A DNA stretch of 64,000 nt, from positions 3,204,462-3,268,461 of the forward strand of contig OZ244986.1 of assembly GCA_965223075.1 (NCBI GenBank). The letters are read 5' to 3'. Shown piece after piece: positions 6,456 to 22,887 of the stretch; position 1 is the stretch's first letter, and each line of letters begins with the position of its first letter. The DNA is from Candidatus Marinacidobacterium sp. Its GTDB lineage: Bacteria; Acidobacteriota; Vicinamibacteria; Marinacidobacterales; Marinacidobacteraceae. A program made the translations under genes and the position numbers. The notes under the pieces were generated by a model. It searched no databases, had not been told where the DNA came from, and was given only the letters and a program-made list of their open reading frames with translations.

Positions 6456-6500
6456 CTGCCGGCCCGGCTGAAACGCGCGCCGGGTCTCGCTCGCGCTGAC

Positions 6501-6833: not shown

Positions 6834-6878
6834 TTGTAGAGGAGTATTAGGTTCAGTATCTTGAGAGCTGAGTAAACG

Positions 6879-7253
6879 TTACGCCATGTCAGCCCTCCGA
6901 GTCCGAGCGAGATCGAGATCGCGCTTGGGTATTTGATCGGCTTTCTTGAAGAAGCCATGCAGAAGGATCATTTGGGTCTCGTGAACGCAGAACAGGACTC
7001 GGGCGATCCGGTTTCGCAGGCTGCTTCGCGTTTCGAAGAGCCCGTCGCCGAGCGGTCTGCAGACGGGCATTCCGATTGGCCAGCCGTACTCCACGGTCTT
7101 GATGTCGGTGCCGATGACCACGCGATCGTGCTTGTCCAGCCCTCGCAGCCATTCCCGAACCGGTTCGATCCCGTTTGGGGACCGGTAGAACCGTGCCGGG
7201 ACTCGTTTCGAGGGACCATCGACCAACGACCGTATCATAAATGATACACTCAT
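6879..7253 (-). CDS. Gp49-like/RelE-ParE superfamily toxin (HigB-like; DUF891/PF05973-type)
   Basis: 124 aa; paired head-to-tail with the XRE antitoxin; HGFFKK motif typical of Gp49-like toxins; ATG at 7251-7253. Confidence 0.65.
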   Translation of the reverse strand: MSVSFMIRSLVDGPSKRVPARFYRSPNGIEPVREWLRGLDKHDRVVIGTDIKTVEYGWPIGMPVCRPLGDGLFETRSSLRNRIARVLFCVHETQMILLHGFFKKADQIPKRDLDLARTRRADMA

Positions 7254-7785
7254 CGCCCGCCGGCGGTGGGCGACACCGCGTGCGGCTGCTTGCTGGGATG
7301 GTGCGCCGGCACGGTACCGCCGACCTCCGGGTCAACGTCGGGCGGCTTGCGCGCGGCCTCTGCCTCGGTGTGGGCAGCGTGCGGCATGGGGAACTCCTCC
7401 GTGGAGATGTGGTCAGCGGAAGACCCGATGTCTTCCCCTATCCCCATAGACGAAATTCCGGCTCGTTTCTTCTCACCTGTCACGCGTGATGTGGAAAACT
7501 CGGCGTGAGACCGCCGCACGCCGGCGGGCGAGACGCACGGGCTCCATGCATCGAATAGCGCCCCGTCGGCACGGAGCGCCGGACCTAGGGTCGCCAGTCC
7601 GCGTCGGGAATAAACCGGGTCATGAAGTCCTCGAAGAGCGGGACGGTGAAGGCGGTGTCTCCGTGGCTGGGACTCCAGACCATTCCCTGCGCGATCAGCT
7701 TGCTTCGGGTCGGACCGAGGGCGGTGACCGGCCTGTCGAGGACTTGGGATGTCACCCGGCCGATGCGGCCGGGCGCCGAACTCAG

Positions 7786-7856
7786 TTATAACGATCTTAG
7801 AAGTTTTGTCAGATTTCGATAACCTCCAAATATCGCTATAAACCTCCACCGGGGTG
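7786..7856 (+). promoter_or_regulatory. AT-rich (~35% GC) segment about 210 bp upstream of the defence operon; putative promoter region
   Basis: The only strongly AT-rich stretch in the 7.2-8.1 kb non-coding gap: agttataacgatcttagaagttttgtcagatttcgataacctccaaatatcgctataaacc. Confidence 0.3.
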
Positions 7857-8064
7857 CGGCGCTGGCGCTTGTCGGAGTGGCCCGGCACCTCGGGCCGGAG
7901 GCAGGGAGTGACGGCATGCACACCGGCCTCGTAACGTGCGACCTGAGATGGCAAGGGACGCACGAGTAGCGGGTACCTAACCGTCGCAGATTGCCCGGCG
8001 CAAGCGACCGTGACCCCTTCGCGGTCCACTACGATCCCGTCCGCCTCGCGAGGCACTCATTCCA

Positions 8065-11000
8065 TTGAAATTCGAAGACCTTCACCTCGGCACGCGTTTG
8101 CGCGGAGTCACCCCCGGCGTGGTAACGGTCGTCCAGGCCGAGCTGCGTGGGGACACCGCTCTCAGCCTCACCTATAAGGACGAAGCCGGCGCCCTCCACG
8201 AGGTCCTGCTCTTCCGGGACGACGAATCACGCCTCGAACTCGCCGGTCCCTGCCCGATCCGTTCCTTCGCCGCCGACCCGAAACAGTTCCTCCTCGCGGC
8301 GGAGGCCGAGCGGATTCGCCTTGCCCATCTCTTCGATCCGTACCTCGCCGTCCACACCTCGAAGATCGAACCCCTGCCCCATCAGATCACTGCCGTCTAT
8401 GGCGCGATGCTCGACCGTCACCCTCTGCGCTTCCTCCTCGCTGACGACCCCGGCGCAGGAAAGACGATCATGGCCGGGCTTCTCATCAAGGAACTCGTGC
8501 TGCGGGGCGATCTGGAGCGCTGCCTGGTCGTCGCGCCGGGTTCGCTCGTCGAACAGTGGCAGGACGAACTCGGCGAGAAGTTCGATCTCGACTTTGCGAT
8601 CCTCAGTCGGGATCTGCTCGCCGCGTCTCGGAGCGGCGACCCCTTCTCCGAGCATCCCCGACTGATTGCCCGGCTCGACATGCTGAGCCGCGGCGAGGAT
8701 CTGCAGGACCTGATCCGAAGCGCCGAGGAATGGGACCTCGTGGTCTGCGACGAGGCGCACCGGATGTCGGCAAGTTTCTTCGGCGCCGAGGCGAAGTACA
8801 CGAAGCGGTACCAGCTCGGGCGTCTGCTCCGGGACCGGGCGCGCCACTTCCTGTTGATGACCGCAACGCCGCACAACGGCAAGGAAGAGGACTTCCAGCT
8901 TTTCCTCGCTCTCCTCGATCCGGATCGCTTCGAGGGCCGTTTCCGTCCCGGCGTGCACTCGAAGGATGCAAGCGACACGCTGCGTCGGCTGACCAAGGAA
9001 GAGCTCCGCCGCTTCGACGGGACCGCGCTCTTCCCCGAGCGCCGCGCCTACACCGCCCAGTACGAATTGAGTGAGCCGGAGACCACGCTCTACGAGGCGG
9101 TCACGCAGTACGTCCGTGAGGAGATGAACCGCGCCGAGCGGTTCGCCGCGACCGACGACCGCCGCCGGGTGAACGTGGGCTTCGCCCTGACGGTGCTGCA
9201 ACGCCGGCTCGCGTCTTCGCCGGCCGCGATCCACGAGAGCCTGAAGCGGCGGCTCGCGCGCATGGAGGATCGGTTGACGGCGATGCGGGAAGGTGTTCCG
9301 GCGCCGGCCCCCGCTCCCACTCTCGATCCGGATGACCTTGAGGAGGCGACAGAAGAGGAGATCGAGACAACCGAGGAGCGCGTGCTCGACCAGGCGACCG
9401 CCGCGGCCACCATGGAGGAGCTGGAGACGGAGATCGAGACGCTCCGGCGCCTGGAGAAACAGGCGCGGGCTCTGCGCCTCCGCAACACGGACACCAAGTG
9501 GCGCGAGTTGAACACCGTCCTCGACCACCCGCTGATGACCGCCGGGAACGGCCACCGGCGCAAGCTCATTGTCTTCACCGAACCCCGGGACACTCTCGAA
9601 TACCTCGCCGACCGGATTCGCACCCGGCTCGGAAGGCAGGATGCGGTGGTGGTGATCCACGGCGGCGTGTCGCGCGAGGCCCGGCGCGACGCGGTGGAAG
9701 CGTTCATGAACGACCCCGAGGTGGTCGTCATGGTGGCGAACGACGCGGCGGGCGAGGGCGTGAACCTGCAGCGCGCTCATCTGATGGTGAACTACGACTT
9801 GCCCTGGAACCCGAATCGGCTGGAACAGCGTTTCGGGCGCATCCACCGGATCGGCCAGACCGAGGTCTGTCACCTCTGGAATCTGGTGGCGAAGGACACT
9901 CGTGAAGGCGAGGTCTATGGGCGTCTGCTGGAGAAGCTCGATGTGGCGCGAAAGGCGCTCGGCGGCCGGGTGTATGACGTTCTCGGCCGCCTGTTCGAGG
10001 GCAAGGCCATGCGGGACCTGCTCCTCGACGCGATCCGCTACGGGGAGAGTCCGGAAGCCCGGAACCGTCTCTTCGAGAAGGTGGATCAGGCCGCCGCCAC
10101 GGAGCGGATCGGAGAGTTGCTCGCCGAACGCGCGCTGGTCCGCGAGCACCTGAGCCCGGCGACCGTCGCCGAGATCCGTGACCAGATGGCTCGGGCGAGT
10201 GCCCGGCGGCTGCAGCCGCACTTCATCCGCCGGTTCTTCCTGGAAGCCTTCCGGGCGCTTGGCGGCAGCGTCCATAGGCGCGAGAGCGGGCGGTTCGAGA
10301 TCGCGCGCGTCCCGACCGACATCCGCGACCGGCTGCCCAGGAACCTTCGTCCGGCGGTGCAGCCTCGTTACGAGCGGATCTGCTTCGAGCGGAAAGACGC
10401 GGCCGGTCCGCCGTTCGCGGCCTTCGTGTGCCCCGGCCATCCGCTGCTCGACCGGACGCTCGGTGCGATCCTCGACCGATCGAGGTCGGCCCTCGCCGAG
10501 GGCGCGGTGCTGGTGAACGAAACGGACGACCGTCCGGAGATACGCGCCGAATTTGCGGTGCGAACCGCCGTCACGGATGGCCGAAAGACGCGCTCGGGCT
10601 CGCGGCGCACCATCTCCGAGCGGCTCGCCTTCGTCGAACTGGACGCGAGTGGCCGGGTGGGGAACGGCGGCCCGGCGCCGCACCTCGATTGCCGGCCGAT
10701 CCGGGACGAGGAGCGGGCTCTCCTCGGAGACCGGTTGAGCGCGGAGTGGCTGGGCGGCGACGACGCGATCATGGACCATGCGGTCGGTGCGCTCGTGCCG
10801 GAACACCTCGGCGAAGTCCGGATGCGCCGGGTCGCCGAGATCGAAAAGACGCAACAACAGGTGTTCGAGCGTCTCTCCCGGGAACGGACCCACTGGGACA
10901 ACCGCGCCAACCAGCTCCGGGCGCGGGAGCGCGCGGGGAAGCAGGGCCGCATCGCAGCAGCGCAAGCAGCTCGACGCGCCGAGGAGCTCGACGCCCGCCT

Positions 11001-11532
11001 GGAGCGGAGGATGGCGGAACTGGACCGGGAGGGAGACATTGCAGCCGCGCCCCCGCAGGTCATCGGAGCCTCGCTCGTCGTCCCGGGTGGTCTGCTCCGC
11101 CGGCTCTCGGGTCCCGCGCCCTCCGAGGTCGCGAGCCCCGAGGGTCGGGCCGCCGTGGAGCAGATCGGGATGGCGGCTGTCATGGAGGCGGAACGCGGGC
11201 TCCGGCGGGAGCCGCGTGACGTGAGCGCCGAGAACCGGGGCTACGACATCGAGAGCCGCGACCCGGCGACCGGGCGGCTGCGCTTCATCGAGGTCAAGGG
11301 GAGGCGCGCCGACGCGACCACGGTCACGGTGACCCGCAACGAGACCGCTGTCGCCCTGAACTCACTCGACCAGTCCCACGACTACATCCTCGCCATTGTG
11401 CTCGTCGAGCAGGGGTACGCCCGGCGCACCGCCTACGTAACCGACCCGTTCCGCGCCGGCGTGGACGACACCACCGAAGCAGTCACCCACAACCTGAAGA
11501 GGCTGTTGGCGCGTTCGCAGCAACCGACCTGA
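8065..11532 (+). CDS. SNF2-family helicase with C-terminal DUF3883 (restriction-endonuclease-like) domain
   Basis: ATP-binding DDPGAGKT, DEAH box VVCDEAHRM, helicase-C motif RFGRIHRIGQ, C-terminal GYDIESRD...RFIEVKGR...HDYILAIVLV (DUF3883 pattern); TTG start at 8065 with no in-frame ATG upstream. Confidence 0.9.
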   Translation: MKFEDLHLGTRLRGVTPGVVTVVQAELRGDTALSLTYKDEAGALHEVLLFRDDESRLELAGPCPIRSFAADPKQFLLAAEAERIRLAHLFDPYLAVHTSKIEPLPHQITAVYGAMLDRHPLRFLLADDPGAGKTIMAGLLIKELVLRGDLERCLVVAPGSLVEQWQDELGEKFDLDFAILSRDLLAASRSGDPFSEHPRLIARLDMLSRGEDLQDLIRSAEEWDLVVCDEAHRMSASFFGAEAKYTKRYQLGRLLRDRARHFLLMTATPHNGKEEDFQLFLALLDPDRFEGRFRPGVHSKDASDTLRRLTKEELRRFDGTALFPERRAYTAQYELSEPETTLYEAVTQYVREEMNRAERFAATDDRRRVNVGFALTVLQRRLASSPAAIHESLKRRLARMEDRLTAMREGVPAPAPAPTLDPDDLEEATEEEIETTEERVLDQATAAATMEELETEIETLRRLEKQARALRLRNTDTKWRELNTVLDHPLMTAGNGHRRKLIVFTEPRDTLEYLADRIRTRLGRQDAVVVIHGGVSREARRDAVEAFMNDPEVVVMVANDAAGEGVNLQRAHLMVNYDLPWNPNRLEQRFGRIHRIGQTEVCHLWNLVAKDTREGEVYGRLLEKLDVARKALGGRVYDVLGRLFEGKAMRDLLLDAIRYGESPEARNRLFEKVDQAAATERIGELLAERALVREHLSPATVAEIRDQMARASARRLQPHFIRRFFLEAFRALGGSVHRRESGRFEIARVPTDIRDRLPRNLRPAVQPRYERICFERKDAAGPPFAAFVCPGHPLLDRTLGAILDRSRSALAEGAVLVNETDDRPEIRAEFAVRTAVTDGRKTRSGSRRTISERLAFVELDASGRVGNGGPAPHLDCRPIRDEERALLGDRLSAEWLGGDDAIMDHAVGALVPEHLGEVRMRRVAEIEKTQQQVFERLSRERTHWDNRANQLRARERAGKQGRIAAAQAARRAEELDARLERRMAELDREGDIAAAPPQVIGASLVVPGGLLRRLSGPAPSEVASPEGRAAVEQIGMAAVMEAERGLRREPRDVSAENRGYDIESRDPATGRLRFIEVKGRRADATTVTVTRNETAVALNSLDQSHDYILAIVLVEQGYARRTAYVTDPFRAGVDDTTEAVTHNLKRLLARSQQPT

Positions 11533-11666
11533 GTGACAGGCATCGAACGCCCGAACCTCCCAATCCACGCCCGAAAACCGCCCGGGAGCGCCTTTTGCCG
11601 GAGATATACTGCCGATCCGATGAGGACTTGGCCCTCCTGAGTTCAGCCCTGACGGAAGGGAGATCC

Positions 11667-12314
11667 ATGACGCGCGCCGAAATCGTCCTGGCGGCTATGG
11701 CTGCGGGGGGACGGGGCGTGTCCTATGACGGTCTCCGCATTCAGAAACTCCTGTTCCTGATTGATGTCGAGATATCGGACTTGTTGGAAGGACCGTATTT
11801 CGACTTCGCAGCCTACAACTATGGTCCGTTCGACAAGAGCCTCTACGAAGTACTTGGGGACCTGGAGCGTCGCGGAAACGTTGCGCAGGGACACGAGAAC
11901 GGTTATGCGGACTATTCCCTGACCTCGGAGGGCAGCGTGGAGGGCGGGCGCGTCCTGGGGACGCTTTCCCCAGAGGCGCGTCAGTTCATGGAGAGCGCGG
12001 CGAAGTGGCTCCGGCTGAGCACATTTCGTCGTATCCTGACCGTGATTTATCTCAAGTACCCCGAGATGGCCCGAAACAGCGTCGTGCCTGAACTCAAGGC
12101 TCCTTCGTTCCGGGCGGCGCACCGTTTCGTCCTCCCGTCATTCCTTTCAGGCGTCTCGCGCATCTTCGATTTCACCGGCAGCCTCGATCCACCCATCTAC
12201 CAGGAGCCGCCTGAGCAGGCGGATGCGATGGCCATTCGTCAGGATTGGGAGGCGGTCGGGGACGATCTCGAGCACGCGCTCGCGGCCTTCGGTCCGCCAG
12301 AGCCTGCACGGTGA
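11667..12314 (+). CDS. Panacea (DUF4065)-domain protein, putative antitoxin-type partner
   Basis: LRIQKLLFLIDVE...YNYGPFDKSLYEVL matches the Panacea KLQKLLYxAQ...YGPVxxxVY pattern; ATG at 11667 with AAGGGAG SD; GC ~58%, lower than flanks. Confidence 0.6.
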   Translation: MTRAEIVLAAMAAGGRGVSYDGLRIQKLLFLIDVEISDLLEGPYFDFAAYNYGPFDKSLYEVLGDLERRGNVAQGHENGYADYSLTSEGSVEGGRVLGTLSPEARQFMESAAKWLRLSTFRRILTVIYLKYPEMARNSVVPELKAPSFRAAHRFVLPSFLSGVSRIFDFTGSLDPPIYQEPPEQADAMAIRQDWEAVGDDLEHALAAFGPPEPAR

Positions 12315-12423
12315 CGAAGCGCCGGAACTCGCGCGCGAAGTCGCCTCCCGTCCGGAGATCGGTGGCGGCTGTTGTGGACCTGCCGCGTCCATCCAGCCAT
12401 CGGGCGAATGGAGAGATCGGAGC

Positions 12424-13272
12424 ATGAAGGCAAGTAACGGAATTGCCCGAAGTGCCCGAGCAGTATTCGTGGTTCACGGGCGCAATACCGAGGTGCGCGA
12501 CGCGATGTTCGAGTTTCTTCGCGCCGTTGATTTGCGTCCGATTGAGTGGTCAGAGGCGATCACGGGTACTGGCAGGCCGACCCCATCAATCCCTGAGATT
12601 CTGAGAGCCGCGTTTGCTCGGGCACGAGCCGTGGTCGTCCTGTTGACACCAGACGACAAGGCGGTGCTGAGAGAGCGATACTGGAAGGAAGGTGACCCGG
12701 ACGGCGAGCGCCGACCGTCAGGGCAAGCACGACCCAATGTGCTGTTCGAAGCCGGGATGGCCATGGCCTTCAAGCCAGAACGCACGATTCTCGTGCAGTT
12801 TGGAAGTTTGAGACCCTTTAGCGATATTGGCGGACTTCATGTCGTTCGCTTTCGTAATGACAGCCAGACGCGCCAGAACATCGCATCGAGGCTGGAGACG
12901 GCAGGTTGCCCGGTGAATCTGGCTGGTACGGATTGGCACACCGCGGGTGACTTCAATGATGCCGTGATGGACGACGACGAGGAGTCGTTCGACGAACAAG
13001 CGCCACAAGCCACTGGATGGCGGGAAGTTTCTGACTTCTCGGAACTCTCTGAGAACGCCAGGAGTGCGCTGCAGACAATGGCTGGTACGGATGCACCCTT
13101 AGTCAAATTCGCAAGTCTTGCTGATACTCGATTCCTCGTTGGCAGACGGTCCTTCTCCCCTCGAGTGTTTGAAGAGATGCTGGAAGCAAACTTGATTCGC
13201 GATGAGTCCGGAGAGGGAAAACGGTTCATATTGACCCACGCTGGATATCAGGCTGCCGATGGCCTCCAATAG
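12424..13272 (+). CDS. TIR-like domain protein (PF10137 'predicted nucleotide-binding protein containing TIR-like domain') with ~130-aa C-terminal extension
   Basis: AVFVVHGRN...AVVVLLTPDD...ARPNVLFEAGMAMA...RTILVQFG matches the PF10137 motif order (VFIVHGhD / LLTPDD / RPNVxFExGyf); ATG at 12424 with GGAGAG SD; GC ~55%. Confidence 0.6.
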   Translation: MKASNGIARSARAVFVVHGRNTEVRDAMFEFLRAVDLRPIEWSEAITGTGRPTPSIPEILRAAFARARAVVVLLTPDDKAVLRERYWKEGDPDGERRPSGQARPNVLFEAGMAMAFKPERTILVQFGSLRPFSDIGGLHVVRFRNDSQTRQNIASRLETAGCPVNLAGTDWHTAGDFNDAVMDDDEESFDEQAPQATGWREVSDFSELSENARSALQTMAGTDAPLVKFASLADTRFLVGRRSFSPRVFEEMLEANLIRDESGEGKRFILTHAGYQAADGLQ

Positions 13273-13292
13273 CTGTCAGGTGTGACGCGCTG

Positions 13293-16169
13293 GTGACAAC
13301 AGCCGAGCTCCGGACCGTCCCGAAGCTCATCGAGGTGGCGCTGCCGCTTGATGACATCAACCGGGCGGCGGCGCGGGAGAAGTCCATCCGACACGGCCAC
13401 CCGAGTACGCTGCATCTCTGGTGGGCGCGGCGTCCCCTGGCGGCGGCGCGAGCGGTGCTGTTCGCGCAACTGGTGGACGATCCGTCGGGGCGGCCGGAAC
13501 TCTTCCCGACCGAGGCGGAGCAGGACCGCGAGCGCGAGCGGCTATTCGGGATCCTGCGGAAGCTGGTGCTCTGGGAGAACACCACGAACGAGGAGGTCCT
13601 CGAAGCGGCGCGGGCGGAGATCCGGGAGTCGTGGCGCCGGACGTGCGCCGACAACGCGGACCACCCGCGGGCGGTGGAGCTCTTCGACCCGGAGAAGCTG
13701 CCGGCGTTCCATGACCCGTTTGCCGGGGGCGGCGCCATCCCGCTCGAGGCGCAGCGGCTCGGGCTGGAGGCGCACGCGAGCGACCTGAACCCGGTCGCGG
13801 TGCTCATCAACAAGGCGATGATCGAAATTCCGCCCCGGTTCGCGGGAAGGCCGCCGGTGAACCCGGAGGCGCGGGCGCGGAAGTCGGTGGCCGGACGGGA
13901 GTGGCGCGGGGCGGCGGGGCTCGCCGAGGACGTGCGCTACTACGGGAAGTGGATGCGGGACGAGGCGGAACGGCGGATCGGGCATCTCTACCCGAAGGCG
14001 CGCATCACGCCGGAGATGGTGGCGGACCGGCCGGACCTGGAGCGCTACAAGGGTCGGGACCTGACCGTGATCGCGTGGCTCTGGGCGCGGACGGTGCCGA
14101 GCCCCAACCCGGCGTTTTCGCACGTCCAGGTTCCGCTGGTTTCGACGTTCATGCTCTCGACGAAGAAGGGGAAGGAGGCGTACGTGGAGCCGGTGGTGGA
14201 GGGCGACTCTTTCCGGTTCGAGGTCCGGGTGGGAACGCCGCCGGATTTCGGAGCCTCGGAAAGAGGTACGAGCGCTGGAAAACGCAGTGGATTCCGATGT
14301 CTGATGTCCGGCTCGCCGATTACCTTCAATCACGTTCGCGTTGAGGGACGGGAGGGGCGGATCGGACAGCGACTCATGGCAGTCGTCGCGGCAGGCGATC
14401 GAAGTCGAATCTATCTGCCCCCCGCGGTGGTGCAACAAACGACGGTCAGCGAAACACCTTGGAATCCCGACGTTCGCTTGGAAGGCAAGTGTCGAGTCAA
14501 CGTCTCGAACTATGGCTTCGACGTTTACAGAGACCTCTTTACGTCGCGGCAGCTCGTCGCTCTGACGAATTTGTCTGACCTTGTCAGTGAGGCGGTGAAG
14601 CGAGCGCGTGCGGACGCGGCACAATCTTATCTGCCCGCCGACGACCGACCACTGGCCGAAGGCGGCACCGGCCCCTGCGCCTATGCCGAGGCGGTTGGGG
14701 TGTATCTCGGTTTGTCTGTCAGCCGGACGACCAACACCATCAATGCCCATACAGTTTGGTCTAAGGGTAGAGGACAGACCGTGAATCTGTTCAGCCGGCA
14801 GGCTATACCAATGACTTGGGATTTCCCCGAGGCGAGTCCCTTCTCGCGAGCGGCGGGTGACTTCGCCATGACTACGGATTCGGTAAGTAAAGTGCTCACT
14901 TACGTCTCAAGAGGCTTTGGAACTGCGGCGCAAGAAGACGCGCAGACACAAGTCAGATCGGTCTTGCGGATCGTCTCAACGGACCCGCCGTACTACGACA
15001 ACGTTGCCTATGCGGACCTGTCAGATTTCTTCTATGTGTGGCAACGGAGGACTCTTCGTCAGACTTACCCTGACATATTCGCCACGGTGTCAGTGCCCAA
15101 AGCCGACGAGCTAGTGGCGACCCCGTACCGTCACGCCAGCAAGCAAGCTGCAGAGACATTCTTCCTTAGGGGAATGACTCGGGCACTCCGGCGACTCTCA
15201 GAACAACCTCATGGTGCATTTCCGATCACCGTCTACTACGCGTTCAAACAGTCAGAAACGAAAACCGGAACCAGAACGGTGAGCACGGGTTGGGAGACGT
15301 TCTTGGACGCCGTTATCCGATCCGGATTCGCGATCTCCGGAACATGGCCAATGCGTACTGAAAGGCCGACGGGCGTAAAGGTTGCTTTCAACGCACTCGC
15401 GTCAAGCATCGTTCTCGCGTGTCGAAGACGACTCCCCAATGCGCCCTCGACTACCCGGCGCAGTTTCCTGGCTGCTCTCCACACGGAACTTCCAGAAGCC
15501 ATCACTCGCCTCCAGGACGAAAACATCGCGCCGGTAGATCTCGCGCAGGCCGCCATCGGCCCCGGCATGGCGATCTTCACCCGCTACTCGCGCGTCCTCG
15601 AAGCCGACGACTCCCCGATGACCGTTCGCATGGCCCTCGCCCTCATCAATGCGGAACTCGACCAGATCCTCTCCGCTCAGGACGCCGACTACGATCCCTG
15701 GACCCGCTTCGCGGTCACCTGGTTCGAGACGAAGGGCATGGACCCCGGCCCCTACGGTGACGCTGAGACCCTCGCCACCGCCCGCGGCGTGGCGGTCGAA
15801 GGCGTCGTCCACGCTGGCATCCTGAAGGCGACCGCCGGCCAGGCCCGCCTACTCCGCCGGGACGAACTCGATCCCGGCTGGTCCCCCGAAACCGACGACC
15901 GCCTCACTGTCTGGGAGTGCGCACAGCACGTCGCCCGCCGCCACGAAGACGGCGGCGAGATGTCCGCCGCCGCGCTGGTCGCCCGCCTCGGCGACCGCGC
16001 CGCCGCCGCCCACGCCCTCGCCTATCGCCTCTACGGCATCTGCGACCGGAAGAAACTCGCCGAAGAAGCCCTCGTCTGGAACGAACTCGTCCAACTCTGG
16101 CCCCGCCTCACTGAACTAGCCCCTACCGCCACCGCCCCGCGCCCCCAAGACCTTCTCAGCAGTAAATGA
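13293..16169 (+). CDS. DUF1156 (COG1743) Zn-ribbon-type adenine-specific DNA methyltransferase
   Basis: N-terminal LIEVALPLDDINRAAAREKSIRHGHPSTLHLWWARRP is the DUF1156 signature; DPPY catalytic motif (STDPPYYDNVAY); GTG start; the central ~1.2 kb has distinctly lower GC. Confidence 0.85.
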   Translation: MTTAELRTVPKLIEVALPLDDINRAAAREKSIRHGHPSTLHLWWARRPLAAARAVLFAQLVDDPSGRPELFPTEAEQDRERERLFGILRKLVLWENTTNEEVLEAARAEIRESWRRTCADNADHPRAVELFDPEKLPAFHDPFAGGGAIPLEAQRLGLEAHASDLNPVAVLINKAMIEIPPRFAGRPPVNPEARARKSVAGREWRGAAGLAEDVRYYGKWMRDEAERRIGHLYPKARITPEMVADRPDLERYKGRDLTVIAWLWARTVPSPNPAFSHVQVPLVSTFMLSTKKGKEAYVEPVVEGDSFRFEVRVGTPPDFGASERGTSAGKRSGFRCLMSGSPITFNHVRVEGREGRIGQRLMAVVAAGDRSRIYLPPAVVQQTTVSETPWNPDVRLEGKCRVNVSNYGFDVYRDLFTSRQLVALTNLSDLVSEAVKRARADAAQSYLPADDRPLAEGGTGPCAYAEAVGVYLGLSVSRTTNTINAHTVWSKGRGQTVNLFSRQAIPMTWDFPEASPFSRAAGDFAMTTDSVSKVLTYVSRGFGTAAQEDAQTQVRSVLRIVSTDPPYYDNVAYADLSDFFYVWQRRTLRQTYPDIFATVSVPKADELVATPYRHASKQAAETFFLRGMTRALRRLSEQPHGAFPITVYYAFKQSETKTGTRTVSTGWETFLDAVIRSGFAISGTWPMRTERPTGVKVAFNALASSIVLACRRRLPNAPSTTRRSFLAALHTELPEAITRLQDENIAPVDLAQAAIGPGMAIFTRYSRVLEADDSPMTVRMALALINAELDQILSAQDADYDPWTRFAVTWFETKGMDPGPYGDAETLATARGVAVEGVVHAGILKATAGQARLLRRDELDPGWSPETDDRLTVWECAQHVARRHEDGGEMSAAALVARLGDRAAAAHALAYRLYGICDRKKLAEEALVWNELVQLWPRLTELAPTATAPRPQDLLSSK

Positions 16170-16350
16170 GGATCCGGTTCTTGAACCCACCACCCGCTGA
16201 TCCGGCATTCTGGTGGGCCTCCGGACGCCGCGGCGCGGCGGAGTCCGTCCGGCCGAAGGGCGACTTGAGATCGCTTTTTTCGTCCATGGCTGCTGCGAGC
16301 GGTCGTTGAACGCCACGTCCTTAAATCATCAGACCATGGCCTAATGATCA

Positions 16351-17577
16351 ATGAGGGTCTCTCACGCAGTGAACACGACAGAAAAACGAGACGGTTTCTT
16401 CGCTCGCAGAGTCGCAGCGCTCTGTCAGGAAATAGAGAAGTGGGCACGCGCAAATGACCTATGGCATGACTGTGGGTTCTTCGACTATCTGGAGCGAGTA
16501 GATCCACTTCGGTGGGACGACACCGCGTACGCGGTGGTTTTGGCTGCAGAAGGCGACTTTGCCCGAGTGATCTTTGCCCGTGATTACTGGGCCGCAGATG
16601 GAGAGCGTGACTTACCGGAAGAGTTTGACCAAATCTTGCAAAGACACGGCTTTTGGTATGAACAATACGATCACACAGAAATGTGGATCTACCCTAACGG
16701 AAACTCGCTAGAGGCGGAATTCAGAGAGCACTTACGTTGGAAGTGGATATGCAATCTGATAAAACCCGACTTCGACTTGCTGAATGAGGAGCTATACGAT
16801 CACTTCGGAAAGACGCCTGATCGGCTACAGGCGTTGGACTGGCGAGACTTCGAGAAACTCGTTGCTGCCTTGTTGGAGTCTCAAGGGTACGAAGTGGAAC
16901 TTGGCCCAGGGAGCAACGATGGGGGCGTAGACATAAGGCTTCTTCAGAGGGATCCAGTTGGGGATATTCTGACTTTGGTTCAGGTCAAGCGGTACAGAAC
17001 TGATCGGCGAATACGGCTTGATGCTGTGCAGGCCCTACACGGAGCTATGACGGCGGAAGGTGCCCCCCGGAGCATGTTCGTTACAACATCCGAATATGCG
17101 GTGAGTGCACGAAAATTCGCGAATCGACACAATGTACCGATGACGTTCCATACGTCGGATGATGTTCAGCAGTGGTGCAGGGATGCCCATAACGGCATCG
17201 TGGAGGACAAGAGGACCCTCGTGTCCGAAAAAAATATCGCCAAGATTATCGAGAAAGCGCAGACAGACCACCGGCAAGTGCTTCACAGTCAAGGTGGCTA
17301 CAGTATGACAATGAACACGTTTGCCGTAGTACTAAAGGCGACGCGTACCTCCGCGCTGCTGTTGGAACTTCCGACACGGACGACCGAACATGACGGGTAC
17401 GGACAGCGAGGCCGCGAAGTGCCTGACTTGGGTCCAGCGCTGCCGCTTTCGCACCTTCGTGGAAACGAGATACGGAGGGCAAGAAGGACACCAGGCAGTG
17501 CTGGGACGTTCTGGGATGGTCATAGACGGTATGCGCCTTGGGGTGGCAAGCCCGTCCATTTCGACTACATGGATTGA
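16351..17577 (+). CDS. Mrr-like restriction endonuclease (Mrr_cat PD-(D/E)xK domain) with ~150-aa unknown N-domain
   Basis: FEKLVAALLESQGYEVELGPGSNDGGVDIRLL...LVQVKRY matches the Mrr catalytic core; GC ~52% versus ~70% flanks; AT-rich upstream (ttaaatcatcagacc); the 3' ~280 nt return to high GC and low-complexity translation, so the true stop is uncertain. Confidence 0.6.
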   Translation: MRVSHAVNTTEKRDGFFARRVAALCQEIEKWARANDLWHDCGFFDYLERVDPLRWDDTAYAVVLAAEGDFARVIFARDYWAADGERDLPEEFDQILQRHGFWYEQYDHTEMWIYPNGNSLEAEFREHLRWKWICNLIKPDFDLLNEELYDHFGKTPDRLQALDWRDFEKLVAALLESQGYEVELGPGSNDGGVDIRLLQRDPVGDILTLVQVKRYRTDRRIRLDAVQALHGAMTAEGAPRSMFVTTSEYAVSARKFANRHNVPMTFHTSDDVQQWCRDAHNGIVEDKRTLVSEKNIAKIIEKAQTDHRQVLHSQGGYSMTMNTFAVVLKATRTSALLLELPTRTTEHDGYGQRGREVPDLGPALPLSHLRGNEIRRARRTPGSAGTFWDGHRRYAPWGGKPVHFDYMD

Positions 17578-17750
17578 CTTGCGGATTCAGCGTCCGGACC
17601 TGGGCGCGGTTTTCGCCCTTTGCGATGCTGGCGATGCCGAGCTGGAGGTCGGCGGTCTCTTGGCTGTCCCGTCACCCTCGTTGACCGGCGTTCCCCCCTC
17701 GAGCATGCCCGGCTTGGCCGGGGTACCGGGAGCGGGTACGCTGGCGTGAA

Positions 17751-21032
<3,282 letters not shown>

Positions 21033-21045
21033 GGGAGGAAAACCG

Positions 21046-21321
21046 ATGCGCGGTGTGCTGATCGAGATTGGCCAGAGGGCCGCCGATTTCGTCCGGATGG
21101 CGCTGCGCCAGGTCCTCCTTCGGCGGCGGGAGCCGTCCGCGGTGCGGCTCCCGAATGCGGAAACCATTGCGGCGTTGAACGAGCCTACGCACAGCCTGAA
21201 GCGGTTCGATTCGGTGGAGGATCTGTTCGCGGACATCAAGGCCGGTACGTCCGGTTCGCGGGCCGGAGCGGGGAGAACTGCGCGAAACCCCCACGGGAAA
21301 AACATCTGTGGTGGGTGCTGA
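21046..21321 (+). CDS. DinJ/RelB-like antitoxin-fold small protein
   Basis: ADFVRMALRQVLL...PNAETIAALNE...DSVEDLFADI parallels E. coli DinJ (SDLVRITLTKV...PNQLTIQSIKN...DADDLFDKL); GGGAGG SD 8 nt upstream of the ATG; begins 14 nt after the DUF499 stop. Confidence 0.5.
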   Translation: MRGVLIEIGQRAADFVRMALRQVLLRRREPSAVRLPNAETIAALNEPTHSLKRFDSVEDLFADIKAGTSGSRAGAGRTARNPHGKNICGGC

Positions 21322-21787
21322 ACGGGCCAGCCTGATTCTGGTGGGATGCGTCAAACGCAAGCGCAGTCAGTCATGTGCCGCCCGGGACCTTTACGATGAG
21401 TCGCCGCTCTGGCGCGGCCGACGGGCATACGCCGAACGCTCCGGCGCGCCCTGGTACATCCTGAGCGCCAAACACGGTCTGTTGGCCCCGAACGCCTGGA
21501 TCGGACCGTATGACCTGGCGCTGAAGCACCTCAAGCGGGAAGAACGCCGAGACTGGTCGCGGAACGTGCTCGACGAACTCCGCGCCCGGTTCCCGACGCT
21601 CACTGGCAAGATGGTGGAGTGCCACGCAGGCAAGGACTATTTGGAAAACGGGCTGGAGGAGGGGCTGCGGAAAGCGGGCGCCGTCGTCCGCCGACCCCTG
21701 GCAGGTGTGGGAATCGGCGTCCAACTCCGTTGGTACCGCGTGCAGTCAGACGCATCCGGCGCCGGAGGGAGAAAGAGAGATGGCTGA
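21308..21787 (+). CDS. Small conserved protein, DUF6884-like (tentative)
   Basis: LILVGCVKRKR...ARDLY...WYILSAKHGLL...PYDL resembles the SCSxxK / ILSAKYGL pattern of DUF6884-type proteins; GTG start overlapping the DinJ-like stop by 14 nt. Confidence 0.45.
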   Translation: MVGAERASLILVGCVKRKRSQSCAARDLYDESPLWRGRRAYAERSGAPWYILSAKHGLLAPNAWIGPYDLALKHLKREERRDWSRNVLDELRARFPTLTGKMVECHAGKDYLENGLEEGLRKAGAVVRRPLAGVGIGVQLRWYRVQSDASGAGGRKRDG

Positions 21788-22682
21788 TGCGGCCCGGCTG
21801 GCGGAGTTGATCAGCGAGGACTTCTACGGAGGTAACCTGGACTTCAACACGAGGAAGCCCGGGAGCGATGACTGGTCGAACCTGCCGGAAGTCGAGGCGA
21901 CGGACAGGATGCCGCCGACGGACGCGGCAGTCGCCACCGATGGGCTCCGCGATGACCATGTGACCGGACGGACAGTGCGTTTGTTCCTGACCTTTGTCGC
22001 GGCGGTGGACAAGATGCGGGATGCGACGCAACTGTGGCGCGCGGCGGGCAATCTGTTCCGGACGAACCCGGAAGTCTTCGACCCTGCGGTCGTGTCCTCC
22101 ATGTCGTTGGAGACGCTGCGGAAACTGCTCTCCAACAGCCGCGTGACCCGGTACCCCGATCGGCAAGCCCGGGCTTGGCGGACGATTGCCGCGAGTCTCT
22201 CCGCACGGAACGGTCCGGTGTGCCGGGTGGTGGATTCGGGCTATGGAGATGCCGCGGAATTGCTCAAGGACGTCCGGAGCCGCGACCGACACGGCCAGAC
22301 GCGATTCCCGGAGCTTCGCGGCGACAAGATCAGACTGATGTGGATTCGGATGATGGCGGAGCCGGGCAAAGCGCGCATTCGCCGTCTGGACACCGTTCCG
22401 GTCGCGGTGGATGTGCAGGTTCGCCGCGTGACCGAGAACTTGGGCGTGACCGATACCCGCGGCCCGGCACTCAACAACAGGATCAAGAAGGAGATTCAGA
22501 ACGCTTGGTCTGCCGCCGTCGCCAATGCCCGGATCGGCGGTCCAGAACGCATCGCCGGGACCTGCTCGGCGCTCGATCCGGCGCTCTGGTTCTACGGCAA
22601 ACACGGCTGCAGCCACTGCGAAAGCGCGAAACGACAGGTCCGCTTTGGCCGGGCCTGCGACTCTTGCCGGTTTCAGATTTAG
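21780..22682 (+). CDS. HhH-GPD (endonuclease III-like) DNA glycosylase-like protein with C-terminal Cys4 cluster
   Basis: VAVDVQVRRVTENLG parallels EndoIII VDTHVFRV around the catalytic Asp; C-terminal C-x2-C-x12-C-x2-C; ATG at 21780 overlapping the upstream stop by 8 nt, with SD GGAGGGAG. Confidence 0.45.
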   Translation: MADAARLAELISEDFYGGNLDFNTRKPGSDDWSNLPEVEATDRMPPTDAAVATDGLRDDHVTGRTVRLFLTFVAAVDKMRDATQLWRAAGNLFRTNPEVFDPAVVSSMSLETLRKLLSNSRVTRYPDRQARAWRTIAASLSARNGPVCRVVDSGYGDAAELLKDVRSRDRHGQTRFPELRGDKIRLMWIRMMAEPGKARIRRLDTVPVAVDVQVRRVTENLGVTDTRGPALNNRIKKEIQNAWSAAVANARIGGPERIAGTCSALDPALWFYGKHGCSHCESAKRQVRFGRACDSCRFQI

Positions 22683-22740
22683 GTGCCATCGGGGTGGGCG
22701 CGATACGCCCCGATCCCGGCTGATGCGCCATCCATTCCAG

Positions 22741-22887
22741 TAGCGATTCGCGGTTTCGCCCGCCTTCGGCGCGCGATGCCGGCCGGAGGCCGGCGTTCCA
22801 AGCCGTCCCCGCGCTTCTTCACAATCGGGGGGACGCGGTTTCGCGGCCCTCCGGGCCGCGGTGCCGGTGTGAACACCGGCGTTCCCT
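22741..22887. repeat. REP-like repeat units in minus orientation
   Basis: GCCGGCCGGAGGCCGGCGTTCCAAGCCGTCCCCGCGCTTCTTC and GCCGGTGTGAACACCGGCGTTCCC hairpins. Confidence 0.8.

What the first reader, a model, noticed from the sequence alone, without database searches (positions are those of the whole stretch)
14250..15430. Lower-GC central segment inside the DUF1156 methyltransferase gene, a possible target-recognition-domain swap
The N-terminal DUF1156 signature region and the C-terminal third of the gene are ~70% GC. Roughly 1.2 kb in the middle is ~53-58% GC although the reading frame stays open. Mosaic composition within a single methylase ORF is the footprint expected from recombinational exchange of a specificity (TRD) module. 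This segment follows on from the low-GC Panacea/TIR-like block (it is not adjacent to the Mrr gene, which lies ~900 bp downstream behind 68-70% GC sequence).
Basis: seen in the sequence. Interest (0 to 1): 0.55.

Follow-up and report, generated by a model that had tools for sequence, protein, structure and literature searches.

The report
Swappable recognition cassette in HmaB methylase
The low-GC middle of this defence-system DNA methylase gene is a real recombination cassette, most likely the part that chooses which DNA sequence is marked, that has been exchanged among otherwise near-identical genes; this is a familiar way for restriction-like systems to change target, here documented for the Hma (Type-1 BREX-related) family.

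Summary
Nt 14250-15430 is 57.6% GC, against 70.5% and 68.5% for the rest of one open 958-codon ORF (13293-16169). Third-codon-position GC (GC3) is 0.62 versus 0.88 (p=6e-22).

The ORF is HmaB, the DUF1156 N6-adenine methylase of an Hma / Type-1 BREX-related defence operon: hmaA helicase-nuclease, hmaB, HEPN-DUF499 hmaC.

The swap reading is supported by evidence that does not depend on GC.
- Relatives 88-97% identical in aa 1-300 and 746-958 are only 35-70% identical (nt) in aa ~305-735.
- Synonymous sites in that centre are saturated.
- Breakpoints (nt ~14190-14250 and ~15455-15575) coincide with the GC dip.
- One backbone clade of 25 proteins carries about 20 central alleles.
- Two loci with 96-97% identical hmaA and hmaC differ completely in the cassette.
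- One relative is a chimera with a crossover at aa ~402-431 (p=1.6e-63).

Caveats:
- The tract covers the variable distal part of the nested target-recognition insert plus the catalytic half of the methylase (DPPY).
- This allele is shared with three relatives, so the exchange is not recent here.
- The GC3 dip is family-wide (74 of 80 distant genes), so it does not prove a swap by itself.
- A change of specificity is inferred from a TRD-swap experiment in the homologous MANTIS system.

A known kind of phenomenon, newly documented in this family; moderate interest.

The parts
13293..16169 (+). hmaB: DUF1156 N6-adenine DNA methyltransferase (958 aa) of an Hma / Type-1 BR defence system
   Evidence: One open ORF. 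Pfam DUF1156 at 107.5 bits. PADLOC HmaB at 1402 bits, aa 4-948 against profile 3-958. More than 8000 full-length homologues.
13293..14207 (+). Conserved high-GC 5' backbone (aa 1-305): DUF1156 helical domain, motif I F143-A-G-G-G147 (nt 13719-13733), and the proximal conserved part of the insert
   Evidence: GC3 0.91. 88-97% nt identity to L001/L002/L003 with synonymous third-position identity 0.7-0.9. Diversity in the backbone clade is 0.114.
14148..14192 (+). Left recombination anchor: nearly invariant motif aa 286-300 (FMLSTKKGKEAYVEP), immediately 5' of the left breakpoint
   Evidence: Invariant or near-invariant columns F286-P300. Identity to P0004/8/10/12/13/18 collapses between aa 300 and 320.
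14205..14531 (+). Cassette sub-block A (aa ~305-413): second half of the beta-rich subdomain of the insert, with hypervariable patches at aa 341-350 and 381-410
   Evidence: 37-49% aa identity to L002/L003/L084/L085 but 87% to L001. L084 follows L085 here: 115 informative sites against 18. Diversity 0.57-0.71. Model 2 has pLDDT about 66-92 in this stretch.
14532..14582 (+). Internal anchor (aa 414-430, DLFTSRQLVALTxxSDL), where the L084 crossover maps
   Evidence: F416, Q420 and D429 are invariant; R419 and L421-T425 are at least 90% conserved. The switch of L084 from L085-like to window-like falls within aa 402-431.
14583..14972 (+). Cassette sub-block B (aa ~431-560): helical hairpin plus the most variable stretch of the family (aa 481-500 and 511-560)
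   Evidence: 36-46% aa identity to L002/L003/L085 but 91% to L001 and L084. The family-wide conservation minimum of 0.29 is at aa 511-540. It assorts independently of sub-block A.
14973..15497 (+). Catalytic half of the methylase carried along in the exchanged tract (aa 561-735; motif IV D564-P-P-Y567 at nt 14982-14993)
   Evidence: The protein is conserved (66-74% to other alleles), but synonymous third-position identity is only 0.24-0.52 and GC3 is about 0.59. That pattern points to hitch-hiking with the cassette rather than local fast evolution.
15525..15572 (+). Right recombination anchor: invariant motif aa 745-760 (IAPVDLAQAAIGPGMA)
   Evidence: Invariant columns A746-A760. Identity to L002/L003 recovers to 0.88-0.93 nt from aa ~742.
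15498..16169 (+). Conserved high-GC 3' backbone (aa 736-958; predicted helical C-terminal domains)
   Evidence: GC3 0.84-0.87. 83-94% nt identity to L001/L002/L003. Model 1 has pLDDT 80-92 here. Diversity in the backbone clade is 0.088.
8065..11532 (+). hmaA: SNF2 helicase with C-terminal NOV_C (PD-(D/E)XK) nuclease, the presumed restriction effector
   Evidence: PADLOC HmaA at 1462 bits. Pfam SNF2-rel_dom, Helicase_C and NOV_C. No cassette-like mosaic block or GC3 dip.
17751..21032 (+). hmaC: HEPN_Swt1-fused DUF499 AAA+ ATPase
   Evidence: PADLOC HmaC at 1010 bits. Pfam HEPN_Swt1 and DUF499. 82-100% aa identity to L001/L002 in 40-aa windows except aa 961-1040. GC3 0.80-0.95.
11595..13272 (+). 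Low-GC cargo between hmaA and hmaB: a 239-aa ORF (11595-12314) and a CAP12/Pycsar-type TIR protein (12223-13272)
   Evidence: Pfam CAP12-PCTIR_TIR at 92 bits; PADLOC PDC-S35. Different genes occupy this slot in L001, L002, L084 and L085.
16351..17577 (+). Low-GC cargo between hmaB and hmaC: Mrr-family restriction endonuclease (408 aa)
   Evidence: Pfam Mrr_cat at 101.9 bits. Shared with L001 (86-93% nt). Replaced by a 1225-aa SIR2_2 protein in L002.

Best explanation
The ORF is HmaB, the alpha-class N6-adenine DNA methyltransferase of an Hma (Type-1 DUF499-centred BREX-related) defence operon. Its AdoMet-binding half (motif I, aa 143-147) and catalytic half (motif IV DPPY, aa 564-567) are separated by an insert of about 380 aa that acts as a nested target-recognition domain.

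The low-GC stretch (aa ~305-735, nt ~14205-15497) is an allelic cassette. It comprises the variable distal part of that insert plus the adjoining catalytic half. The cassette is exchanged between genomes by homologous recombination, with crossovers in nearly invariant anchor motifs: aa 286-300, 414-430, around 464, around 700, and 745-760. Many very old, mutually divergent alleles (35-70% nt identity) circulate on one conserved backbone, and sub-blocks A (aa ~305-413) and B (aa ~431-560) can be exchanged separately.

Inferred function: the cassette sets the short DNA motif that HmaB methylates. The partners HmaA (helicase-nuclease) and HmaC (ATPase) carry no co-varying block, so restriction is probably directed through HmaB as well, and a cassette swap would retarget the whole system without self-restriction. 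Phage pressure would then maintain many alleles.

The low GC3 marks the exchanged tract as compositionally unequilibrated with the GC-rich host backbone. It has the same composition as the accessory cargo genes (TIR, Mrr) embedded in the operon.

Shown: the mosaic, the breakpoints, the synonymous saturation, the discordant phylogeny, the chimera, and the absence of co-variation in hmaA and hmaC. Inferred: that the cassette determines specificity, that restriction is HmaB-directed, and why GC3 is low.
For: Identity of the system.

Protein mosaic: P0004-P0031 are 82-95% identical in aa 1-318 and 71-94% in aa 713-958, but 48-55% in aa 319-712. Identity steps down sharply at aa ~300-320 and back up at ~705-745.

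DNA level against L002/L003: flanks are 0.83-0.97 nt identical with synonymous third-position identity of about 0.56-0.92. The centre is 0.35-0.77 nt identical with synonymous third-position identity 0.24-0.71, mostly 0.3-0.5.

Discordance:
- L001 vs L002: hmaA 96.4% nt, hmaC 97.1%, hmaB N-flank 94.7%, centre 56.6%.
- Window vs L001: hmaA 84.4%, centre 92.1%.

Chimera L084: informative sites are 115:18 (L085-like) in aa 305-416 against 24:302 (window-like) in aa 417-735, Fisher p = 1.6e-63.

Allele richness:
- About 20 central alleles below 80% identity among 25 proteins whose flanks are at least 85% identical.
- 258 of 297 close-flank pairs have a centre below 65% identity.
- Sub-blocks A and B cluster differently.
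- Central diversity within the clade (0.503) equals that of the whole sampled family (0.464), while flank diversity is 0.09-0.11.

No co-varying block or GC3 dip in HmaA or HmaC.

The same allele with the same junctions appears in independent assemblies: L001, and P0121 in both an NCBI and an ENA record. This argues against a misassembly.

Structure: insert aa 185-544 is predicted as a confident separate alpha+beta module, pLDDT mostly 80-95.

Literature:
- BR-type methylases carry a nested TRD insert after core strand 2 (PMC12839542).
- In the homologous Type-2 BR (MANTIS) methylase MtsC, natural variants differ most in aa 444-527. Swapping that region switched the methylated motif from CAACAC to CAACAG without toxicity.
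Against: - No methylome or biochemical data exist for any HmaB allele, so a change of specificity is inferred. The one experimental test of an HmaB (Halomonas; PMC11232893) found that HmaB over-expression did not change T4 infectivity.
- Alleles still share about 35-50% aa identity across the variable part, and the exchanged tract includes conserved catalytic motifs. It is therefore not a clean TRD-only module.
- No donor was found. Outside its own small clade the best match to this central allele is 61%.
- The GC3 dip is family-wide (74 of 80 genes) and does not reverse in low-GC hosts (n = 5). It may therefore have a cause other than import from a lower-GC donor.
- Polarised substitutions show no amelioration toward high GC: 35 GC>AT against 20 AT>GC in the centre.
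- The methylase core was poorly modelled in both structure predictions, so the position of the hypervariable patches relative to DNA is unknown.
- HmaC (aa 961-1040) and HmaA (aa 754-868) have moderately variable patches of their own, which could also contribute to recognition.
Confidence: 0.78

Rival explanations
1. Intrinsic composition: the central domain of every HmaB simply has a lower GC (amino-acid content, codon usage, or reduced GC-biased gene conversion in a region too divergent to form heteroduplex). On this view the dip says nothing about exchange in this genome.
For: GC3 of the variable part is below the flanks in 74 of 80 distant HmaB genes (mean -0.139, Wilcoxon p = 2.6e-14). 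The gap scales with host GC (slope -0.34, r = -0.53). GC1 also drops, both in the window (0.73 to 0.59) and family-wide (0.670 to 0.613). Relatives with different alleles (L002, L003) also dip. There is no excess of AT>GC changes that would signal amelioration.
Against: It explains the composition but not the sequence data: saturated synonymous sites bounded by sharp breakpoints, discordant phylogenies and a chimera. The conserved catalytic part (aa 571-720) is also GC3-depleted (72 of 80 genes, mean -0.098), so the dip follows the exchanged tract rather than protein hypervariability. This rival is best seen as a complementary account of why the cassette stays AT-shifted, not an alternative to exchange.
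Confidence: 0.35
2. Divergence in place: strong diversifying selection on the recognition domain made the centre diverge rapidly within each lineage, without any recombination.
For: The centre is the least conserved part of the family. It contains localised hypervariable patches and small indels, as expected for a region under an arms race.
Against: Synonymous third positions of identical codons are saturated (0.25-0.55) in the centre, while the flanks of the same gene are 0.7-0.9. L001 and L002 differ by 3-4% in hmaA and hmaC but by 43% in the centre. The window-L001 centre is more similar than their backbones. L084 is a clean chimera of two alleles.
Confidence: 0.03
3. Assembly artefact: the mosaic gene is a chimeric contig joining reads of two different organisms in a metagenome assembly.
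For: Most relatives come from metagenome assemblies. Conserved anchors inside hmaB could in principle mislead an assembler.
Against: The same allele with the same junctions and a collinear open frame occurs in a 3.7-Mb contig (L001) and in two independent records of P0121 (NCBI GCA_028874805.1 and ENA ERZ23495471). All alleles keep the frame and a length of 953-975 aa. GC3 changes gradually over about 100 bp at conserved anchors.
Confidence: 0.02
4. In-genome shufflon: the cassette is switched by site-specific or homologous recombination with silent hmaB cassettes in the same genome, as in phase-variable Type I hsdS loci.
For: Sub-blocks A and B assort independently, which resembles hsdS TRD shuffling.
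Against: tblastn and blastn of hmaB against the whole 64-kb window find no second copy, silent cassette or flanking repeat. The best off-target hit has E = 0.11. No recombinase gene was noticed among the operon genes annotated here or in the called genes of the syntenic loci L001/L002.
Confidence: 0.03

Closest known systems
Hma system (PADLOC, Payne et al. 2021, PMC8565338) = Type-1 DUF499-centred BREX-related (BR) system (PMC12839542); HmaA tested in Halomonas meridiana (PMC11232893)
   Same: The same three core genes in the same order, with full-length profile matches: HmaA 1462 bits, HmaB 1402 bits, HmaC 1010 bits. HmaC has the HEPN fusion and HmaA the C-terminal nuclease. Other defence genes are inserted between the core genes; the Halomonas paper reports such insertions in 66.5% of loci.
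   Different: Nothing structural; this is a member. Among the papers the two library searches returned, none describes allelic exchange of the HmaB central cassette, its sub-modular assortment or its family-wide GC3 depression.
MANTIS / Gao_RL (Type-2 BR) methylase MtsC (bioRxiv 10.64898/2026.09.23.753747)
   Same: An alpha-class methylase with a central TRD between motif I (FAGGG) and motif IV (DPPY), and a DUF499 ATPase partner. Natural variants differ mainly inside the TRD. An engineered TRD swap (aa 445-527) changed the hemimethylated 6-bp motif and was not toxic, so the methylase directs both modification and restriction.
   Different: The window's proteins score far below the NCBIfam equivalog cut-offs for that system: DUF1156_antiphage 95 against 1000, DUF499_antiphage 162 against 1200. 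The effector here is an SNF2-REase rather than a PLD-helicase, and there is no MtsB-like gene. The natural tract here is about 430 aa and includes the catalytic half. The correspondence of MtsC 445-527 to HmaB ~350-470 is only an estimate from motif spacing.
Type-3 BREX BrxXI methylase (PMC12839542)
   Same: A nested alpha+beta TRD insert in the Rossmann core and a C-terminal helical (HTH-like) triad. Paired with a BrxC-like ATPase and a BrxHII-like SNF2 helicase.
   Different: HmaB has the DUF1156 helical N-terminus. The four-cysteine Zn finger described at the apex of the BrxXI insert is absent here: C336 is the only invariant cysteine in the insert. There is no PglZ.
Specificity-module exchange in classical R-M and BREX: Type I hsdS TRD1/TRD2 shuffling, Type III mod TRD alleles, MmeI-family/Type IIL and BREX PglX TRD variation (established knowledge)
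   Same: Conserved flanks with many divergent central alleles. Crossovers in conserved spacers, combinatorial assortment of two sub-blocks, and a single polypeptide that would set the target for both methylation and restriction.
   Different: The exchanged unit lies inside an alpha-class methylase fold and drags motifs IV-VIII along. Alleles remain alignable (35-50% aa) rather than unrelated. No local silent cassettes or invertase were found.

Membership tests
Hma / Type-1 BR defence system | SNF2-family helicase with a C-terminal PD-(D/E)XK (NOV_C) nuclease (HmaA) | tested here: met
   8065-11532: PADLOC HmaA at 1462 bits over the full length. Pfam SNF2-rel_dom, Helicase_C, and NOV_C at aa 1031-1115.
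Hma / Type-1 BR defence system | [quoted passage not shown] | tested here: met
   Pfam DUF1156 at 107.5 bits. PADLOC HmaB at 1402 bits. F143AGGG147 and D564PPY567 are invariant in 119 homologues.
Hma / Type-1 BR defence system | DUF499 AAA+ ATPase (HmaC), often with an N-terminal HEPN | tested here: met
   17751-21032: PADLOC HmaC at 1010 bits. Pfam HEPN_Swt1 at 116.5 bits and DUF499 at 77.4 bits.
Hma / Type-1 BR defence system | Anti-phage activity and self-protective adenine methylation | not testable with these tools
   Only HmaA activity against T4 has been shown, in Halomonas (PMC11232893). No methylation motif has been reported for any HmaB.
Alpha-class DNA methyltransferase with a nested TRD | Linear order: AdoMet-binding motifs (X, I, II), then a large insert, then catalytic motifs IV-VIII | tested here: met
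   Motif I at aa 143-147 and motif IV at aa 564-567, about 415 aa apart. There is a weak D12-class Pfam match at aa 133-178.
Alpha-class DNA methyltransferase with a nested TRD | The insert folds as a separate alpha+beta module | tested here: met
   AlphaFold model 2: aa 185-544 mostly at pLDDT 80-95, with a beta-rich subdomain (aa 259-375) and a helical hairpin (aa 418-482). This is a prediction only; the Rossmann halves were poorly modelled.
Alpha-class DNA methyltransferase with a nested TRD | The insert contacts DNA and determines the recognised sequence | not testable with these tools
Type-3 BREX BrxXI-type TRD | [quoted passage not shown] | tested here: not met
   C336 is the only invariant cysteine in the insert among 119 homologues. 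No CxxC pairs are present in this protein.
MANTIS / Gao_RL (Type-2 BR) | Equivalog-level match of the methylase and ATPase, a PLD-helicase effector and an MtsB co-regulator | tested here: not met
   NCBIfam DUF1156_antiphage 95 bits (cut-off 1000). DUF499_antiphage 162 bits (cut-off 1200). phospholipD_antiphage matches HmaA only through the helicase region, at 184 bits (cut-off 1100).
Recombinationally exchanged specificity cassette (as in hsdS, mod, pglX) | Close relatives share the flanks but carry divergent central alleles with sharp breakpoints | tested here: met
   About 20 alleles in a 25-member backbone clade. Breakpoints at nt ~14190-14250 and ~15455-15575.
Recombinationally exchanged specificity cassette (as in hsdS, mod, pglX) | Deep synonymous divergence and phylogenetic discordance between cassette and backbone; chimeric alleles | tested here: met
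   Synonymous third-position identity 0.41 against 0.88-0.94 (L001 vs L002). L084 chimera, p = 1.6e-63.
Recombinationally exchanged specificity cassette (as in hsdS, mod, pglX) | Different alleles confer different recognition sequences | not testable with these tools
   Needs methylomes or biochemistry.
Phase-variable shufflon (in-genome cassette switching) | Silent cassettes or inverted repeats and a recombinase nearby | tested here: not met
   No second hmaB-like sequence or repeat anywhere in the 64-kb window.

The most novel reading that the evidence does not exclude
The HmaB cassette may be a two-part combinatorial specificity generator. Sub-blocks A (aa ~305-413) and B (aa ~431-560) would each read part of an asymmetric target and be reassorted independently at the invariant aa 414-430 anchor. 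That would give a single-polypeptide alpha-class methylase the kind of TRD1 x TRD2 combinatorics known for Type I HsdS, and would retarget an entire BREX-related system in one crossover. In addition, the family-wide GC3 depression of the cassette (74 of 80 genes, scaling with host GC) would be a general compositional signature of long-lived, balanced, inter-genomically exchanged specificity modules. One possible cause is that alleles too divergent to form heteroduplex escape GC-biased gene conversion. If so, the signature could be used to find such modules from sequence alone.
Probability: 0.2. Interest if true: 0.6.

Novelty: new member of a known kind. Interest (0 to 1): 0.4.

Why it matters
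Hma / Type-1 BR systems are reported in 2446 prokaryotic taxa, including 203 archaeal taxa (PMC12839542), yet no recognition motif or specificity determinant has been defined for them.

The natural mosaics found here delimit, to within a few codons, what evolution treats as the exchangeable unit: aa ~305-735, with sub-blocks A and B and their anchor motifs. They also show that neither the helicase-nuclease nor the ATPase has to change when the cassette does. Together these give a concrete, testable prediction that HmaB alone directs both methylation and restriction, as shown for MANTIS. They also give ready-made chimera junctions for engineering or motif mapping.

The result also shows that a within-gene GC3 dip can flag such cassettes in GC-rich genomes, with a caution: the dip is a property of the family, not a time-stamp of a recent event.

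Tried and rejected
1. Finding the donor of this allele. A search with the central 430 aa alone found only same-clade carriers (P0121, 91%); the next best match was 61%. No donor was identified.

2. Genome-contig scan. It returned only distant relatives (at most 64% identity), so it gave no species-level comparison. The loci were used for the family-wide GC3 and conservation tests instead.

3. Polarised substitution spectrum, to test amelioration of an imported low-GC tract. GC>AT changes dominate in both centre and flanks. Inconclusive.

4. Structure.
- The full-length AlphaFold model was poor (pLDDT 63.6).
- The second model (aa 125-745) gave a confident insert but an unreliable Rossmann core. 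The hypervariable patches could therefore not be placed relative to the active site or DNA.
- Sequence and profile searches of PDB found nothing.

5. Residue-level mapping of the MANTIS specificity region onto HmaB. No MtsC sequence could be obtained. A Klebsiella plasmid DUF1156 protein (L086) turned out to be a different, Zn-finger-rich BR subtype. Only a motif-spacing estimate (HmaB ~350-470) is offered.

6. Co-variation of HmaA or HmaC with the HmaB allele. Rejected. Their variable patches (HmaA 754-868, HmaC 961-1040) group the loci differently from the cassette.

7. Local silent cassettes or repeats (shufflon). None found.

8. Relatedness of the window's distant SIR2_2 gene (52533-56318) to the SIR2_2 cargo of L002. 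Not related beyond the domain.

Full report
**1. Observation**

- In 300-bp windows, GC is 0.70-0.73 at 13400-14150, 0.55-0.62 at 14300-15500, and 0.68-0.71 at 15500-16250.
- The interval 14250-15430 is 57.6% GC, against 70.5% and 68.5% for the two remaining parts of the same gene. Only 1.3% of equally long windows in the 64-kb sequence are as low.
- The frame stays open throughout: ORF 13293..16169, 958 codons.
- The drop is mainly at third codon positions: GC3 0.621 against 0.884, Fisher p = 5.9e-22. There is a smaller GC1 component, 0.73 to 0.59.

**2. What the gene and locus are**

The ORF has a Pfam DUF1156 domain (aa 16-87) and matches the PADLOC HmaB profile end to end at 1402 bits.

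Its neighbours are:
- HmaA, an SNF2 helicase with a NOV_C nuclease, at 8065-11532 (1462 bits).
- HmaC, a HEPN_Swt1-DUF499 ATPase, at 17751-21032 (1010 bits).

This is the Hma system of PADLOC. A 2026 NAR paper re-describes it as the 'Type-1 DUF499-centred BREX-related (BR)' system (PMC12839542).

Three low-GC cargo genes sit between the core genes:
- a 239-aa ORF,
- a CAP12/Pycsar-type TIR protein,
- an Mrr-family endonuclease.

Such insertions are already described for hma operons (PMC11232893).

According to PMC12839542, BR methylases consist of the DUF1156 helical N-terminus, an N6-adenine methylase core with a large TRD insert nested after core strand 2, and C-terminal HTH-like domains. 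In this protein motif I is F143AGGG147 and motif IV is D564PPY567. Both are invariant in 119 homologues.

**3. The centre is a mosaic block**

More than 8000 full-length homologues exist. Against the closest ones the protein is strikingly mosaic.
- P0004-P0031 are 82-95% identical in aa 1-318 and 71-94% in aa 713-958, but only 48-55% in aa 319-712.
- In 30-aa windows, identity falls from about 0.9-1.0 to 0.3-0.6 between aa 300 and 320. It returns to 0.9-1.0 by aa ~740.

I fetched the DNA of five relatives: L001, L002, L003, L084 and L085. L001 and L002 are syntenic with the window, with an ABC/MacB transporter upstream and an RND transporter downstream.

In codon alignments against L002 and L003:
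- The flanks are 0.83-0.97 identical at the nucleotide level. Synonymous third-position identity (at codons encoding the same amino acid) is about 0.56-0.92.
- In aa ~321-721, nucleotide identity is 0.35-0.77. Synonymous third-position identity is 0.24-0.71, mostly 0.3-0.5, which is saturated.
- The breakpoints are at nt ~14190-14250 and ~15455-15575, the edges of the GC dip.

Saturated synonymous sites bounded by sharp breakpoints exclude faster protein evolution in place.

**4. Direct evidence of exchange**

(a) L001 and L002 have nearly identical partners: hmaA 96.4% nt, hmaC 97.1% nt, hmaB N-flank 94.7% nt. Their hmaB centre is 56.6% identical, with synonymous third-position identity 0.41. 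Conversely, the window and L001 have an 84.4% identical hmaA but a 92.1% identical centre. The cassette tree therefore conflicts with the backbone tree.

(b) L084 is a chimera. In aa 305-416 it agrees with L085 against the window at 115 informative sites, and with the window against L085 at 18. In aa 417-735 the counts are 24 and 302 (Fisher p = 1.6e-63). The crossover maps to aa ~402-431, on the nearly invariant motif DLFTSRQLVALT..SDL.

(c) Allele richness in one backbone clade.
- Among 25 proteins whose flanks are at least 85% identical there are about 20 central alleles below 80% identity.
- 258 of 297 close-flank pairs have a centre below 65% identity.
- Sub-blocks A (aa 321-450) and B (aa 466-560) cluster the proteins differently.
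- Central diversity within this one clade (0.503) equals that of the whole sampled family (0.464). Flank diversity is 0.09-0.11.

(d) The outer breakpoints abut invariant motifs: aa 286-300 (FMLSTKKGKEAYVEP) and aa 745-760 (IAPVDLAQAAIGPGMA). These are plausible homology anchors for crossovers.

(e) The window's allele, with the same junctions, occurs in independent assemblies: L001, and P0121 in one NCBI and one ENA record. The mosaic is therefore not a misassembly.

(f) There is no second hmaB-like sequence or repeat in the window. Exchange is between genomes, not by a local shufflon.

**5. What the block corresponds to**

A second AlphaFold model, built on aa 125-745 with a more diverse alignment, predicts aa 185-544 as a confident separate module with pLDDT mostly 80-95. 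Its elements are:
- a long helix, aa 208-232,
- a beta-rich subdomain, aa 259-375,
- a helical hairpin, aa 418-482,
- a strand (aa 510-514) and a helix (aa 524-535).

The mosaic block starts inside the insert at aa ~305. It covers the hypervariable patches at aa 341-350, 381-410, 431-460, 481-500 and 511-560. It then continues through the conserved catalytic half, aa 561-735, which includes DPPY. The proximal insert (aa 185-300) belongs to the conserved backbone. The exchanged unit is therefore 'distal TRD plus catalytic half', not a clean TRD.

**6. Function (inferred)**

No HmaB motif is known. The only test of an HmaB, over-expression in Halomonas, showed no effect on T4.

The closest experimentally studied relative is MtsC of MANTIS (Type-2 BR; bioRxiv 10.64898/2026.09.23.753747).
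- It is an alpha-class methylase with a central TRD between FAGGG (aa 241-245) and DPPY (aa 621-624).
- It hemimethylates asymmetric 6-bp sites.
- Natural variants differ mostly in aa 444-527.
- Swapping aa 445-527 changed the motif from CAACAC to CAACAG without toxicity. The methylase TRD alone therefore sets the specificity of both modification and restriction.

By motif spacing, that region corresponds roughly to HmaB aa 350-470. This is my estimate, not an alignment.

In line with the MANTIS logic, HmaA and HmaC show no cassette-like block and no GC3 dip. Their moderately variable patches (HmaA aa 754-868, HmaC aa 961-1040) do not track the HmaB allele. I therefore infer that HmaB's cassette is the system's sequence reader, and that cassette exchange retargets the whole system.

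**7. The GC signal itself**

The dip is not specific to this genome.
- In 80 distant HmaB genes from many phyla and at least one archaeon, GC3 of the variable part is below that of the flanks in 74 (mean -0.139, p = 2.6e-14).
- GC3 of the conserved catalytic part is below the flanks in 72 (mean -0.098).
- The deficit grows with host GC (slope -0.34, r = -0.53) and vanishes in the few low-GC hosts.
- Relatives carrying other alleles (L002, L003) also dip.

The dip follows the exchanged tract, conserved catalytic part included, rather than protein hypervariability. Its composition matches that of the embedded cargo genes. Both points fit DNA that circulates horizontally and is not equilibrated with the host. 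An alternative or additional cause is reduced GC-biased gene conversion in alleles too divergent to pair. That cannot be excluded. The polarised substitution test was uninformative.

**8. Comparison with what is known, and novelty**

Specificity-module exchange is classical for Type I hsdS, Type III mod and Type IIL/BREX PglX (established knowledge). The nested TRD of BR methylases and the gene-insertion hotspot of hma operons are published (PMC12839542, PMC11232893).

Among the papers returned by the two library searches (terms DUF1156/DUF499 and HmaB/HmaC/'Hma system'), none describes any of the following:
- the population-level demonstration that HmaB carries such a cassette,
- its exact limits and anchors,
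- its sub-modular assortment,
- its independence from HmaA and HmaC,
- the family-wide GC3 signature.

The library covers only part of the literature, so this is absence from those searches, not proof of absence. On that basis I rate the finding a new member of a known kind, of moderate interest.

**9. Verdict**

- Confidence that the block is a recombinationally exchanged cassette is about 0.95.
- Confidence that it sets target specificity for the whole system is about 0.7.

Noticed in passing
window 11533-13292 and 16170-17750; L001, L002, L084, L085: The two intergenic slots of the hma operon hold different cargo in each otherwise syntenic relative. Window: 239-aa ORF + TIR, then Mrr. L001: four small ORFs, then Mrr. 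L002: PIN + AAA_15 + YafQ/RelB, then a 1225-aa SIR2_2 protein + a 131-aa ORF. L084 and L085: other small ORFs, DUF2335, a shorter Mrr. All cargo is low-GC (0.49-0.58), like the hmaB cassette. The hotspot is known for Hma (PMC11232893).
   Followed up: partly
It overlaps the listed start of the TIR ORF by 92 nt, so one of the two start codons is probably wrong. Window 11533-12334 aligns at about 85% with L003, where two short ORFs are called instead. One version may be disrupted.
   Followed up: partly
window 20631-20870 (HmaC aa 961-1040) and 10324-10668 (HmaA aa 754-868): HmaC and HmaA each have one moderately variable patch: 0.57-0.72 aa identity in HmaC aa 961-1040 and 0.53-0.78 in HmaA aa 754-868, against about 0.9 elsewhere, versus L001/L002. 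The groupings (window with L084 for HmaA; window nearest L085 for HmaC) differ from the HmaB cassette grouping. The HmaC patch lies in the C-terminal region where PMC12839542 describes a hypervariable RRM-fold domain; I did not map the domain here.
   Followed up: partly
window 6501-7253 (-): A Gp49 (HigB-like) + HTH_37 toxin-antitoxin-like pair in a low-GC block just upstream of hmaA. Window ~6180-8060 has no counterpart in the syntenic loci L001/L002.
   Followed up: partly
window 21032-22756: About 1.7 kb downstream of hmaC is absent from L001/L002. It encodes a DUF6884 protein (21308-21787, 145 bits) and overlapping long ORFs without Pfam hits.
   Followed up: partly
window 52533-56318 (-): A 1261-aa SIR2_2-domain protein fills a second low-GC island (52.5-56.4 kb). 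It is probably another defence gene. It is not related, beyond the SIR2 domain, to the SIR2_2 cargo inside the L002 hma operon.
   Followed up: partly
window 48501-49000: A short low-GC stretch (below 0.60 in 500-bp windows). Not examined.
   Followed up: no
L004-L083 (genome contigs): HmaB is unusually well conserved for a defence protein: 54-64% identity over the full length across Acidobacteriota, Chloroflexota, Spirochaetia, Planctomycetota, Pseudomonadota, Bacteroidota and the archaeon Methanococcoides. At least one genome (OZ251573.1) carries two copies (L023, L056). 186 plasmids carry DUF1156 methylases.
   Followed up: partly
L086 (Klebsiella michiganensis plasmid pK518_KPC, 45946-58509): A clinical KPC plasmid carries a different BR-like operon: DUF499 - hypothetical - SIR2 - ATPase - DUF1156 methylase (1071 aa, with four CxxC pairs in its insert and DPPF instead of DPPY) - hypothetical - SNF2. 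The 26%-identity rows listed include other Klebsiella plasmids and one Raoultella plasmid; 28 of the 186 matching records are Klebsiella.
   Followed up: partly
P0121 / L087 (GCA_028874805.1): The only named carrier of the window's cassette allele is a Chloroflexota MAG. The window (66.5% GC) probably comes from a related Chloroflexota lineage. This was not verified with marker genes.
   Followed up: no
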